In this document: positions 62,001 to 64,000 of the stretch, one piece after another | Numbering within the stretch: position 1 is the stretch's first letter | Layout: every line of letters starts with the position of its first letter | Source of the DNA: a virus | Lineage: Duplodnaviria; Heunggongvirae; Uroviricota; Caudoviricetes | DNA length: 64,000 bases | Virus record (IMG/VR): IMGVR_UViG_2537562172_000006 | Strand: one strand, 5' to 3' | Position numbers: made by a program

Positions 62001-64000
62001 GGTAAAATGCAGATCATCATCGTGATGGCACGTTAACGGCTTAATCAGTCGCGCACGTTCTGCCATTTCCAGCAATGCTTCAACGCTTCCGGCAATTGCA
62101 CCATCCGGCAGGTGGTAATTACGCACTATGCGCCCGTTCTCCACATGGACCAGTAGCTGCCCGGTAAATTTCTCGTCAAACTGAATGCGGTGAAGGTCGG
62201 TAAGTGACAGGTTAATCATGGCGTACCTCCTGGCGAATACGGGCAGCGAATACCATCACGCAGCCATCAGGAGATTGCTGGCGGGCTTCCTGTTCGCTGG
62301 TGGCCTCGATGTGAATCACGCGCGGTTGTGCCGTGCTCAGGGCGATAAAACGCCAGATGTATTTATTCAGGTTGTGCGAGTCCCGCCCTTGCGGGTGTGT
62401 GGTATGATTTATCATAGCTACCTCGATACTTTCGCTATCGTTGGTGGTTAGACGCCCTGGTACTGTTCCCGCAGTCCGGGGCGTTGTTTTTTTTGCAATG
62501 GTAAGTACAATGGTAATTACCGTGTAACTATAGTAATTATGGGTAATTACCATGTCAACACCATTAGAAAAACGATCGCCACCATACCAAATGCGGCTAC
62601 CAGAAGAATTTAGGGCACAACTTGAGGAGGCAGCCAAAGCAGACGGCGACACCTCATTAGCTACCTGGATTAAACGAGTGCTCCGCAAAGAATTACAACA
62701 GCGAGGCATCGTGCCAAAAGGTTGACGATTAAGGGTAAAATCAAGAATGTATATTTTTGGAAAATGGTTACTGATTGCAGCAACATTGACACTTTTATAT
62801 TTTTTTGTAGCAGGGCTACAAAATGGTGAAATTGAGGTCAAGCGCGACCATACCTCTAATGATATAGGTAAAGTTACATTCAGCTTAAAGTAGGAATAGT
62901 TGCAATGTTGTACATAAGTCCAGGTTAAGTTGATCAGCACCGAGCAACCAGAAAAAATCGTATCAGTCACGCCACCAGCAAAATTTTTTGCTTTCCGGAC
63001 AGCGTGGCCAACGACATTTTGCAGCAAAATATTCTGCATTTCTGGTGTGCTGTAGTAACGGTGATCTGCGCCTTCACTCTGTGCGACCACAACGCTATAA
63101 TCTGCCTCGTAGACAGTAAGCAATATGGCGCAGTAGGCTATTCGTTCACAAAGGCGCTCCGGCAACGGGGCGCTTTTTCTTTTTGTAACGGTCAGAGCGT
63201 TACACATGGCTGTTTTCCTCCATGCGACGGGCTAACCAACGCTGCGAAAGACGAATTAATTCAGCTTTCCGCTGGTGGTAGCCCTGGCCTAACTCAATCA
63301 GCGTGATATTGCTCTGCTCAAGGTAAGAAAGGTGCTCAAGCTGCAACGTGCTCATGTGGTCGCGTGGTTCGCCTGTGATGCCGTTCGCCTGCGCCCACTG
63401 TTTTGCAGTCATGCCACCCAGCACGATACGCGCCAGCATATTGGCTTCCGTGGTGTAGTGGTGCTGGAACGTGTTTTTACCCAGTTCAGCCCGGTACGCC
63501 TCCAGCGCGGCACACATTGGCTTAAAGTAGCTGGCAACGGTGATACGGGCTTTCAGTTCCCGGCGTAACGCTGCGGAACGCACTGGCGCTACCTTGTGTA
63601 GCTCCTCCTCGCATTTGATAAAGTACTGGCGAACGGCGCGGCCCTGTTCGGTACGTTCGACCATCGCCAGTTCTTTCGCCATGTTCACTGTGATGATGTA
63701 CTCAAGAGCGGTTTGCTGGCGAGATTTTGCGCTCACCGGATCGGGTCGGCTCAAATATTCAACAACCTCATAATCCACGCCTTCCGTGAACCCGTATTCT
63801 TCAATGCGCCCCTTGATCCACGAACGGAAAACGCGCCCTACACCTAACGCCTTATGTAACGCTCTGGCGCTAACAATAGTGGTTTCACGCCCACCAATAA
63901 CGCCGGAAATAACCGGAATAATTTCAGCGAAATTTTGCAGATTCTGTTTTTCAGGCCGAACGAAGCCCCGCCCCTGTACAGGCGTATATCCAGTATTCAT

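What the first reader, a model, noticed from the sequence alone, without database searches (positions are those of the whole stretch)
62416..62725. Compact genetic switch: RHH repressor with twin perfect palindromes
Two identical 10-bp palindromes GGTAATTACC, three helical turns apart, sit between a 57-aa RHH gene (+) and the leftward replication operon (-). A stem followed by T8 lies just upstream. RHH dimers bind such tandem palindromes cooperatively; this is probably the master repressor, and the antirepressor at 63200-64000 a likely derepression partner.
Basis: partly seen in the sequence, partly recalled or inferred. Interest (0 to 1): 0.45.

Follow-up and report, generated by a model that had tools for sequence, protein, structure and literature searches.

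The report
Satellite island repressor switch with antisense RNA
An unannotated 57-residue Arc-type DNA-binding protein, its palindromic binding sites laid over the promoter of a phage satellite's replication genes, and a small antisense RNA not in the RNA family catalogue together form a compact off-switch, present in about 9% of complete E. coli genomes, for a class of satellites whose repressor has been unclear.

Summary
GGTAATTACC occurs exactly twice in the 64-kb window, at 62512-62521 and 62542-62551 (0.04 expected). The sites lie between a real 57-aa Arc/Mnt-type ribbon-helix-helix (RHH) gene (62552-62725, +) and a leftward Icd-like/DUF4222/primase operon.

The window is E. coli chromosome. 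The locus lies in an island of about 12 kb of the Gram-negative PICI type: integrase, AlpA-like regulator, AntA, replication genes.

The repressor-operator reading is well supported by comparison:
- In 66 loci from many genera the palindromes sit in the same places on an invariant TTGACA leftward promoter.
- They change together with the protein's DNA-reading strand.
- They follow the small protein, not the replicase.

Three points of the interpretation are not supported:
- Cooperativity across 30 bp. The spacing varies from 27 to 35 bp and follows promoter geometry. A third, weaker site lies 12 bp from the distal one.
- AntA as partner. It is adjacent in 7 of 71 loci.
- "Master" repressor.

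The "stem + T8" is most likely the terminator of a conserved + strand cis-antisense RNA of about 80 nt. It covers the ribosome-binding site of the first replication-operon gene, as sar RNA does in phage P22 immI. No Rfam family matches it.

Verdict: a new member of a known kind, moderately interesting.

The parts
62552..62725 (+). 57-aa ribbon-helix-helix (Arc/Mnt-type) gene, unannotated by PGAP; predicted repressor
   Evidence: ORF. 63 homologues of 44-97 aa, most of 56-58 aa. Compared with the O157:H7 copy there are 33 nt differences, 30 at third codon positions, and 2 aa changes. PHROG 228 Arc-like repressor, E 1e-6. Pfam Arc E 0.0064, below the cut-off. hhalign places it in register with P22 Arc and Mnt. 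All 46 Foldseek PDB hits are RHH proteins, none individually significant.
62542..62551 (.). O1, proximal operator GGTAATTACC; lies in the spacer of the leftward promoter and abuts the RHH start codon
   Evidence: A site at the same position (-10 or -11 from the start codon) in nearly all relatives; its sequence varies with the protein's beta-strand.
62512..62521 (.). O2, distal operator GGTAATTACC; covers about +2 to +12 of the leftward transcript
62500..62509 (.). O3, degenerate third site GGTAAGTACA (8 of 10), 12 bp upstream of O2
   Evidence: Read. A site at the same place in many relatives, for example TGTAATTACA in L005, L006 and L020, and GGCAAGTACA in O157.
62530..62558 (-). P_left, sigma-70 promoter of the replication operon: -35 TTGACA (62558-62553), 17-bp spacer, -10 TACTAT (62535-62530); start expected near 62523
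   Evidence: 10 of 12 matches. TTGACA in 43 of 44 distinct relatives, and a TAnnnT -10 at 16-18 bp (all but one at 17-18) in 38 of 44. TGTCAA is kept even where the RHH start codon is GTG or TTG.
62529..62534 (+). Candidate -10 (TATAGT) of a weak rightward promoter for the RHH gene; overlaps the P_left -10; no Shine-Dalgarno sequence before the ATG
   Evidence: A + strand -10-like hexamer about 16 nt before the start codon in many relatives. The -35 is poor. Inferred, not shown.
62415..62494 (+). Predicted cis-antisense small RNA of about 80 nt: stem-loop 1 (62415-62450), terminator hairpin (62451-62485), T8 (62487-62494); complementary to the leader and Shine-Dalgarno sequence of the Icd-like gene
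   Evidence: MFE -38 kcal/mol, z -6.4 on the + strand against z -2.4 for the - strand leader. 95.6% of cells paired, 12 pairs with changes on both sides, 0 of 500 shuffles as high. 87 G-U pairs against 7 A-C. T-rich tail on the + strand in all 34 sequences. Covariance model R1 finds it in 8 loci not used to build the model. No Rfam family reaches threshold.
62400..62408 (+). P_as, extended -10 promoter TGgTATGAT of the antisense RNA, inside codons 3-6 of the Icd-like gene
   Evidence: T, A and final T of the hexamer are invariant in 34 aligned loci while the overlapping protein N-termini differ.
62212..62415 (-). Icd-like gene (67 aa), first gene of the leftward operon; its Shine-Dalgarno GAGGT (62424-62420) is covered by the antisense RNA
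   Evidence: NCBIfam NF033153, E 3.9e-20; annotation.
59755..62219 (-). Rest of the leftward replication operon: hypothetical 121 aa, DUF4222, D5_N/DUF5906/Pox_D5 primase-helicase
63150..63187 (+). Rho-independent terminator that probably ends the rightward (RHH) transcription unit
   Evidence: 12-pair stem followed by a T-tract. Equivalent terminator in the O157 island.
63200..64000 (-). AntA/AntB-family gene; a neighbour, not a demonstrated part of the switch
   Evidence: Pfam AntA E 2.5e-23. Adjacent to the RHH gene in 7 of 71 loci.

Best explanation
The locus is the control region of the replication module of a Gram-negative phage-inducible chromosomal island (PICI). It works on two levels.

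Level 1, transcription. The 57-aa Arc/Mnt-type RHH protein binds as dimers to the 10-bp palindromes O1 and O2, and probably to the weaker O3. O1 fills the spacer between the -35 and -10 of the leftward promoter P_left. O2 covers its start site. Occupancy therefore keeps RNA polymerase off the Icd-like/primase operon. The candidate RHH promoter shares the same -10 region in mirror image, with O2 in its spacer and O1 at its start, so the protein would also limit its own synthesis.

Level 2, translation and transcript stability. A + strand RNA of about 80 nt starts from an extended -10 promoter inside the first codons of the Icd-like gene. It runs across that gene's Shine-Dalgarno sequence and ends at the hairpin and T8. 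It is fully complementary to the leader of any P_left transcript. It would block translation or trigger cleavage. Its promoter also fires head-on at P_left, about 108 bp away.

What is shown by sequence and comparison: the parts, their positions, their conservation, and the co-variation of protein with sites. What is inferred: binding, repression, expression of the RNA, and the route of derepression. I suggest AlpA-dependent leftward transcription reading in from int/alpA/antA, because no - strand terminator was found in between.
For: Context:
- The window is 100% identical to E. coli ETEC1747. The island holds int, an AlpA-like HTH regulator, AntA, an unannotated gap, Icd-like, DUF4222, primase, ProQ/FinO and PerC, between smrA and abgR.
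- The same RHH/operator cassette is in 488 of 5426 complete E. coli genomes. One is an O157:H7 island with capsid and terminase genes, of the capsid-forming PICI kind. It is also in Pasteurella 'phage' Pmp8.

The gene is real and RHH:
-, as listed under parts.

The sites belong to the protein:
- Double dissociation. Island L068 has a 96%-identical primase and a 97%-identical Icd-like gene, but a YlcI/YnfO protein at this position and three different palindromes, GTGTTnAACAC. The O157 island has a RepA-family helicase instead of the primase, but the same RHH and the same GGTAATTACC pair 30 bp apart.
- Co-variation across 66 loci. Strand ..QYQMRL goes with GGTAATTACC. ..QFPMRL goes with GGTATATACC. 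TDQYQ(I/L)RL goes with TGTAATTACA.
- The Q-to-P change is at the position that aligns with Arc Asn11. Arc Asn11 is a base-contacting residue; this rests on established knowledge of the Arc-operator structure, 1PAR.

Promoter placement.

Antisense RNA:
-.
- In 10 kb of P22 immI the best hit of model R1 is the sar gene with its promoter, in register (E 0.36).
- Rfam's sar model matches the terminator hairpin weakly (18.2 bits).

No - strand terminator was found between antA and P_left.

[quoted passage not shown] The full-text searches made here turned up no description of this cassette.
Against: - There is no experimental evidence for binding, repression or RNA expression.
- Pfam Arc and NCBIfam YlcI/YnfO matches are below their curated cut-offs. 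No single Foldseek hit is significant. The AlphaFold monomer shows the two helices but no assigned beta-strand, as expected for a strand that forms only in the dimer.
- Several relatives have an imperfect distal site (GGTCGTTACC, GGTCATTACC), and some SPQYQMRL proteins sit next to GGTACGTACC or GGTATATACC. The strand-to-site code is therefore not strict. The loci are phylogenetically related, which inflates apparent co-variation.
- The RHH gene has no Shine-Dalgarno sequence and its own promoter has a poor -35, so how it is expressed is unclear.
- The antisense promoter lies in coding sequence, so part of its conservation could be coding constraint.
Confidence: 0.7

Rival explanations
1. The palindromes are origin or iteron sites bound by the island's primase-helicase, as the short repeats near the divergent region of P4 are bound by its alpha protein. 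On this reading they are not operators of the small protein.
For: P4 has its ori with short repeats next to its divergent promoter region (annotation). The sites here are AT-rich and lie at the head of the replication operon.
Against: The sites follow the small protein and not the replicase. The same primase goes with different palindromes in L068; a different replicase (RepA helicase) goes with the same palindromes in O157. They also sit exactly on promoter elements.
Confidence: 0.04
2. The RHH protein is the antitoxin of a type II toxin-antitoxin pair. It autoregulates its own operon through the palindromes, and the downstream 48-aa hydrophobic ORF (62747-62893) is the toxin.
For: Many RHH proteins are antitoxins; sources name some homologues 'HicB family antitoxin'. 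A small ORF follows on the same strand.
Against: The 48-aa ORF has no counterpart in any of the other loci and no family match. The downstream gene differs between islands, or is absent with alpA converging within about 150 bp. The conserved partner of the cassette is the leftward promoter and leader, not a downstream gene.
Confidence: 0.04
3. The hairpin and its flank act in the leftward mRNA (- strand) as a structured leader or immunity RNA of the P4 CI / P1 C4 type, or the hairpin is only a terminator insulating the RHH gene. On this reading no antisense RNA is made.
For: Immunity RNAs of the C4/isrK type are reported in this zone of Gram-negative PICIs (PMC10111431). Base-pair covariation alone cannot tell the strands apart.
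Against: No C4 or isrK match, even at E up to 10. G-U pairs outnumber A-C 87 to 7, so the helices hold on the + strand and break on the - strand. The T-tract is only on the + strand. The fold z-score is -6.4 on the + strand and -2.4 on the - strand. An invariant TAnnnT lies at the right distance upstream on the + strand. Model R1 finds nothing in P4.
Confidence: 0.15
4. RHH is mainly a Mnt-like bifunctional switch protein: bound at one site it represses P_left but activates its own overlapping divergent promoter, rather than repressing both.
For: The two promoters share the -10 region, so excluding polymerase from one can favour the other, as Mnt does at Pant/Pmnt in P22 (layout; the mechanism is established knowledge). 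The RHH promoter has a weak -35 and may need help.
Against: O1 lies at the predicted start of the rightward transcript and O2 in its spacer, a layout that favours repression of both. Nothing tested here tells the two apart.
Confidence: 0.15
5. The island's own AntA protein (63200-64000) is the antirepressor that inactivates RHH.
For: AntA-domain proteins are annotated as antirepressors, and the gene is adjacent in this island.
Against: AntA is adjacent in 7 of 71 loci. Most RHH-bearing islands have none, including the O157 island. The same AntA (97%) accompanies the unrelated YlcI/YnfO cassette in L068.
Confidence: 0.07

Closest known systems
Phage P22 immI region (mnt / Pmnt-Pant / arc / sar RNA / ant)
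   Same: A small RHH repressor is transcribed divergently from the operon it controls. The two divergent promoters overlap, with operators laid over them. A small antisense RNA starts just inside the regulated gene, runs back over its ribosome-binding site and ends at a hairpin terminator (annotation). The RHH aligns in register with Arc and Mnt. Model R1's best hit in P22 is sar with its promoter.
   Different: The regulated operon encodes an Icd-like protein and replication genes, not an antirepressor. There is no second RHH (Arc) in the operon. The protein is Arc-sized, lacking Mnt's tetramerisation tail. The sites are separate 10-bp perfect palindromes 30 bp apart, not one 17-21-bp operator. 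The RNA scores 18.2 bits against Rfam sar, gathering score 43.
MetJ / CopG / Arc style RHH-operator recognition
   Same: One RHH dimer per short palindromic or pseudo-palindromic box, read by the two-stranded beta-sheet. This is established knowledge; it is supported here by the strand-to-site co-variation.
   Different: Those proteins bind adjacent boxes (8-11 bp) cooperatively. Here the two perfect boxes are 27-35 bp apart in different relatives, and only O3-O2 (12 bp) are adjacent.
Stl / Rpr master repressors of Gram-positive PICIs (SaPIs)
   Same: A repressor gene divergent from the excision/replication operon of a phage satellite (PMC6092414).
   Different: Stl proteins are large, unrelated, and control the whole island. 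Here the int/alpA side lies outside the controlled unit, and AlpA is the known activator. No helper-encoded inducer is known for RHH.
P4 CI RNA / P1-P7 C4 RNA / isrK immunity RNAs
   Same: Small RNAs that keep a satellite's or phage's early operon silent; the P1 operon also begins with icd. They are reported in the same zone of Gram-negative PICIs (PMC10111431).
   Different: Those RNAs are co-directional with, and processed from, the operon they control. The RNA here is on the opposite strand with its own promoter and terminator. No Rfam C4 or isrK match and no R1 hit in P4.
YlcI/YnfO (NF041551) cassette in sister islands
   Same: It occupies the same slot, with the same orientation and size (59 aa), and has its own set of three palindromes. 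The RHH has a weak match to this family (E 4.8e-4).
   Different: Different sequence family at curated threshold and different operator sequence (GTGTTnAACAC).

Membership tests
Arc/MetJ/CopG ribbon-helix-helix superfamily (Arc-like: Pfam PF03869, PHROG 228) | Sequence profile match | tested here: inconclusive
   PHROG 228 Arc-like repressor E 1e-6. Pfam Arc 16.8 bits, below the 20.4 cut-off. hhalign to P22 Arc E 5e-4 and to Mnt E 1e-3, in register over the strand and helix A.
Arc/MetJ/CopG ribbon-helix-helix superfamily (Arc-like: Pfam PF03869, PHROG 228) | Strand-helix-helix fold | tested here: inconclusive
   AlphaFold model pLDDT 78, helices 18-31 and 36-50, extended N-terminus with no assigned strand. 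All 46 Foldseek PDB hits are RHH proteins (Arc rmsd 0.9 A over 38 columns, AmrZ 37% identity), but every E is at least 1.4.
Arc/MetJ/CopG ribbon-helix-helix superfamily (Arc-like: Pfam PF03869, PHROG 228) | Dimer that reads a palindromic or pseudo-palindromic DNA site with the beta-sheet | not testable with these tools
   Indirect support only: co-variation of strand residues with site sequence, and cassette swaps.
P22 immI-type control region | RHH repressor divergent from the controlled operon, with overlapping divergent promoters carrying the operators | tested here: met
   for this locus; for P22. At the level of consensus elements and positions only.
P22 immI-type control region | Antisense RNA starting inside the regulated gene and covering its ribosome-binding site | tested here: inconclusive
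   Promoter, structure, strand bias and terminator are all conserved. Expression was not tested.
P22 immI-type control region | The controlled gene is an antirepressor (ant) preceded by arc | tested here: not met
   The first genes are Icd-like, a 113-aa unknown, or a primase. There is no second RHH.
Rfam sar RNA (RF00262) | Covariance-model score at or above the gathering threshold | tested here: not met
   18.2 bits against 43, and only the terminator hairpin aligns.
C4 / isrK / P4 CI immunity RNAs | Rfam C4 or isrK match; RNA co-directional with the operon | tested here: not met
   No match at E up to 10 in 62150-63300, and none at gathering score in the whole window. Strand evidence points to the opposite strand.
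Type II toxin-antitoxin (RHH antitoxin) | Conserved adjacent toxin gene in the same operon | tested here: not met
   The downstream ORF is not conserved and has no family match.
Gram-negative PICI / capsid-forming PICI satellites | Integrase + AlpA + replication (primase or helicase) module in an island of about 10-15 kb, in the published zone order | tested here: met
   Annotation of the identical genome. Zone order as in PMC10111431. Sister islands carry capsid and terminase genes.
Gram-negative PICI / capsid-forming PICI satellites | Induction and packaging by a helper phage; att sites | not tested
   att sites were not mapped, and no helper phage is known for this island.

The most novel reading that the evidence does not exclude
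The RHH protein, its operators and the sar-like antisense RNA are the missing repression system that keeps the replication and late genes of many Gram-negative PICIs silent. The O157:H7 island of the EcCIEDL933 (capsid-forming) type would be among them. Interchangeable RHH or YlcI/YnfO cassettes would act as 'immunity types'. Helper-triggered, AlpA-dependent transcription reading in from the int/alpA side would override the system by running antisense through the RHH gene and into the replication operon.
Probability: 0.25. Interest if true: 0.7.

Novelty: new member of a known kind. Interest (0 to 1): 0.5.

Why it matters
For Gram-negative PICIs the field knows an activator (AlpA) but has stated that the existence of a repressor is unclear (PMC6092414). 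This cassette gives a concrete, testable candidate.

It is unannotated or mis-annotated by the standard pipeline. It is present in about 9% of complete E. coli genomes and in many genera of Enterobacterales, Pasteurellaceae, Orbales and Aeromonadales, including an island of the experimentally used EcCIEDL933 type.

The work also adds a conserved small RNA that matches no Rfam family. It shows that a P22 immI-like design (RHH + overlapping divergent promoters + antisense RNA) has been reused to guard a replication operon that begins with a cell-division inhibitor homologue.

Exchangeable protein and operator pairs on a constant RNA/promoter backbone are useful parts for synthetic control of PICI-based delivery vehicles.

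Tried and rejected
- Rfam, whole window at gathering score and 62150-63300 at E up to 10: nothing credible for the hairpin region. The mir-5727, ctRNA, sar and R1162 hits are all far below threshold.
- PDB sequence search with the family profile: the top hits are designed helical repeat proteins, spurious helix-loop-helix similarity. Only AmrZ, at E 0.39, is an RHH.
- Homology of the region to phages at the DNA level: only the Pasteurella Pmp8 satellite carries the cassette. P4 has neither the RHH nor the RNA.
- AntA as partner: rejected on co-occurrence.
- Origin/iteron reading: rejected by the double dissociation.
- Toxin-antitoxin reading: rejected for lack of a conserved toxin.
- The inner degenerate site AGTAATTATG (62532-62541), considered as a fourth operator, is not conserved in the O157 copy, so it was left out.
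- The second R1 hit in the window (6795-6885, 24 bits) looks like an ordinary terminator.
- Literature searches for an RHH or YlcI/YnfO repressor in PICIs found nothing.
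Full report
**What the window is**

The 2.5 kb around the finding are 100% identical to the chromosome of E. coli ETEC1747. In that genome the finding lies in an island of about 12 kb between smrA and abgR. All its annotated genes read leftward in window orientation: tyrosine integrase, a 62-aa AlpA-like HTH regulator, an AntA/AntB protein, an unannotated gap of 784 bp, then Icd-like, hypothetical, DUF4222, DNA primase, ProQ/FinO, PerC, DUF2213 and others.

Pfam and NCBIfam agree. The primase has D5_N, DUF5906 and Pox_D5 domains. AntA scores E 2.5e-23. The Icd-like protein matches NF033153 at E 3.9e-20.

This is the published layout of Gram-negative phage-inducible chromosomal islands (PICIs): an integration zone, a 'Bro' zone, a replication zone and a late zone (PMC10111431). 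Sister islands with the same cassette carry capsid, portal and terminase genes. Examples are the island next to roxA/pepT in O157:H7 EC4115 and Pasteurella 'phage' Pmp8. These are of the capsid-forming PICI kind.

**The observation**

- GGTAATTACC occurs exactly twice in 64 kb, at 62512-62521 and 62542-62551. Shuffles give 0.04 on average and never two.
- The centres are 30 bp apart.
- The proximal copy abuts the ATG of a 57-aa ORF (62552-62725, +).
- The first leftward gene starts at 62415.
- A hairpin (62451-62485) followed by eight T (62487-62494) lies on the + strand.

**The ORF is a real gene for an Arc/Mnt-type protein**

It has 63 homologues of 44-97 aa, most of them 56-58 aa, at 63-98% identity to the window protein. 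They come from Escherichia, Salmonella, Klebsiella, Yersinia, Xenorhabdus, Photorhabdus, Pectobacterium, Pantoea, Gilliamella, Pasteurellaceae, Aeromonas and Oceanimonas.

Against the O157 copy there are 33 nucleotide differences. Thirty are at third codon positions, and only two change an amino acid. That is strong purifying selection.

PHROG 228 'Arc-like repressor' matches at E 1e-6. The Pfam Arc match (E 0.0064) and the NCBIfam YlcI/YnfO match (E 4.8e-4) are below their cut-offs.

Profile comparison aligns the family in register with P22 Arc (SKMPQFNLRWPREV against KRSPPYQMRLPEEF) and with Mnt.

The AlphaFold monomer has pLDDT 78, with an extended N-terminus and two helices. All 46 Foldseek PDB hits are RHH proteins: Arc, AmrZ, NikR, CopG, ParD, VapB and others. 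For so short a chain none is individually significant.

**The palindromes are this protein's operators**

Three lines of comparative evidence support this.

First, position. In 66 loci from one genome per species, a palindrome always abuts the start codon and a second lies 27-35 bp upstream, mostly 30-31. Often there is a third, 11-12 bp beyond that. In the window the third site is GGTAAGTACA at 62500-62509.

Second, co-variation.

| DNA-reading strand | Site |
|---|---|
| ..QYQMRL | GGTAATTACC |
| ..QFPMRL (Photorhabdus, Citrobacter) | GGTATATACC |
| TDQYQ(I/L)RL (Pectobacterium, Pantoea, Erwinia and others) | TGTAATTACA |

The Q-to-P position aligns with Arc Asn11, a base-contacting residue in the Arc-operator structure (established knowledge). 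The code is not strict: a few QYQMRL proteins sit beside GGTACGTACC or GGTATATACC. The loci are also related to one another, so this is support, not proof.

Third, a double dissociation.
- E. coli island L068 has the same primase (96%), Icd-like gene (97%) and AntA (97%). In this slot, however, it has a 59-aa YlcI/YnfO protein and three different palindromes, GTGTTnAACAC.
- The O157 island has a RepA-family helicase instead of the primase, but the same RHH and the same two GGTAATTACC boxes 30 bp apart, although the spacer between them has diverged.

The boxes therefore follow the small protein and not the replicase. This also disposes of the origin/iteron reading.

**What binding would do**

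The consensus scan finds one strong promoter in the intergenic region, on the - strand: TTGACA (62558-62553), a 17-bp spacer, then TACTAT (62535-62530).

O1 fills the spacer. O2 covers about +2 to +12.

The -35 hexamer is the complement of codons 1-3 of the RHH gene (ATG TCA A..).
- TGTCAA is kept in 43 of 44 distinct relatives, even where the start codon is GTG or TTG.
- Residue 3 varies but is always encoded by a codon beginning with A.
- A TAnnnT -10 follows at 16-18 bp, all but one at 17-18, in 38 of 44.

On the + strand a -10-like hexamer (TATAGT, 62529-62534) overlaps the P_left -10, giving a mirror-image layout with O2 in the spacer and O1 at the start. This rightward promoter has a poor -35, and the gene has no Shine-Dalgarno sequence. 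How the protein is made is open: from a weak promoter with a short leader, or by read-through from the antisense RNA promoter.

The spacing of the two perfect boxes is therefore explained by promoter geometry. It varies by 8 bp among relatives. Only O3 and O2 are close enough (12 bp) for the dimer-dimer contacts known from Arc, MetJ and CopG.

**The stem and T8**

The segment from the first leftward gene's start to the T-tract is conserved in all these islands, including L068, where the repressor cassette differs. The evidence points to a + strand RNA of about 80 nt.

- An alignment of 34 distinct loci shows three helices: a terminator hairpin, an inner hairpin, and a closing helix that uses the conserved GUGGUYAGA.
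- 95.6% of cells are paired and 12 pairs have changes on both sides. None of 500 shuffles reaches this, and slid controls reach only 34-47% paired.
- G-U pairs outnumber A-C 87 to 7. The helices therefore hold on the + strand and would break on the - strand.
- Every sequence has a T-rich tail on the + strand and none on the - strand.
- The window RNA (62414-62493) folds at -38 kcal/mol with z -6.4. The - strand leader has z -2.4.
- Upstream on the + strand the three key positions of a -10 hexamer (TAnnnT; in the window TGgTATGAT, 62400-62408) are invariant. The protein N-termini encoded on the other strand differ.
- A covariance model built from the alignment finds full-length matches in eight loci that were not used to build it (E 1e-11 to 1e-20) and none in P4.

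The RNA would be fully complementary to the leader and Shine-Dalgarno sequence of the first gene of the replication operon, and in most relatives to its start codon too. Its promoter faces P_left about 108 bp away.

No Rfam family matches.

The arrangement is that of sar RNA in P22 immI, where Psar lies just inside ant and sar runs back over the ant ribosome-binding site to a terminator. Two weak hits point the same way. The best hit of my model in 10 kb of P22 is sar with its promoter, in register (10.6 bits, E 0.36). Rfam's sar model aligns to the window's terminator hairpin (18.2 bits). Neither is significant, so I claim analogy and leave distant homology open.

**What is not supported**

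- AntA is next to the RHH gene in 7 of 71 loci and absent from the O157 island. The same AntA accompanies the unrelated YlcI/YnfO cassette. It is a variable 'Bro zone' gene, not a dedicated partner.
- The 48-aa ORF after the RHH gene is not conserved, so a toxin-antitoxin reading fails.
- 'Master repressor' goes beyond the evidence. Int, alpA and antA are upstream and outside the unit, and AlpA is the known, helper-dependent activator (PMC6092414).

No - strand terminator was found between antA and P_left. A reasonable but untested route of derepression is AlpA-dependent leftward transcription that runs antisense through the RHH gene and into the replication operon.

**Known or new**

RHH repressors with palindromic operators over promoters are textbook, and the design copies P22 immI. 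New here:
- the gene family, unannotated in ETEC1747 and covered by a wrong-strand pseudogene call in EC4115;
- exchangeable RHH and YlcI/YnfO cassettes;
- the antisense RNA, which matches no Rfam family.

The full-text searches made here found no description of any of these. The cassette is in 488 of 5426 complete E. coli genomes.

I rate it a new member of a known kind, interest 0.5.

Confidence by step:
- protein and operators belong together, about 0.85;
- binding represses P_left, about 0.75;
- the antisense RNA is made and acts on the first gene, about 0.7;
- the cassette is the key quiescence system of these satellites, about 0.25.

Noticed in passing
window 63073-63187 (+): A promoter-like site (TTCACT-17-TATAAT, 63073-63101) lies about 50 nt before a strong + strand terminator (63150-63187). 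Together they could give a second RNA of about 80 nt, or the terminator may simply end the RHH transcription unit. The 270 bp at 62930-63199 are 95.6% identical in island L068 although the repressor cassette differs. The O157 island has a similar terminator (L070 7553-7585).
   Followed up: partly
L002-L069, first leftward gene: The first ~8 codons (MA[N/D/K]xxxN/T...), which overlap the antisense RNA promoter, travel with the regulatory cassette. They are fused to unrelated genes: Icd-like proteins of 58-68 aa, an unknown 113-aa family, or directly a zinc-finger primase of 800-924 aa (Xenorhabdus).
   Followed up: partly
L070 7079-7672 (O157:H7 EC4115, NC_011353 1537519-1538112); L001 12917-13700: PGAP calls a partial 'Icd-like' pseudogene on the wrong strand across the RHH gene in EC4115, and annotates nothing there in ETEC1747. 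The RHH gene is systematically missed or mis-called.
   Followed up: yes
L068 7630-7700: The sister island with a YlcI/YnfO protein has three palindromes, GGTGTTGAACACC / GGTGTTAAACACG / AGTGTTGAACACT. YlcI/YnfO (so far of unknown function) has an RHH-like pattern and a weak profile link to the RHH family. This suggests YlcI/YnfO proteins are operator-binding repressors.
   Followed up: partly
window 6795-6885 (+): A weak hit of the antisense RNA model (24 bits, E about 0.001): GGTCAGA followed by a GC hairpin and T-tract after a prophage gene. Probably only a terminator.
   Followed up: partly
window 44394-44572 (-), 30953-31128 (-), 48869-48986 (-), 5468-5552 (+): Rfam matches above gathering score to RalA (antitoxin RNA of the rac prophage RalR toxin), sok, FnrS and sRNA-Xcc1. 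The window spans prophage and core chromosome besides the island.
   Followed up: no
window 5578-6135 (+): A second AntA-type ORF (185 aa, motif ...[29 protein letters not shown]) in a prophage region of the same window.
   Followed up: no
window 58840-59382 (-) and 58556-58843 (-): The island encodes a ProQ/FinO-domain RNA chaperone (E 6e-24), followed by a protein that PGAP annotates as a PerC-family regulator. An island-borne RNA chaperone next to a candidate antisense RNA system may not be a coincidence.
   Followed up: no
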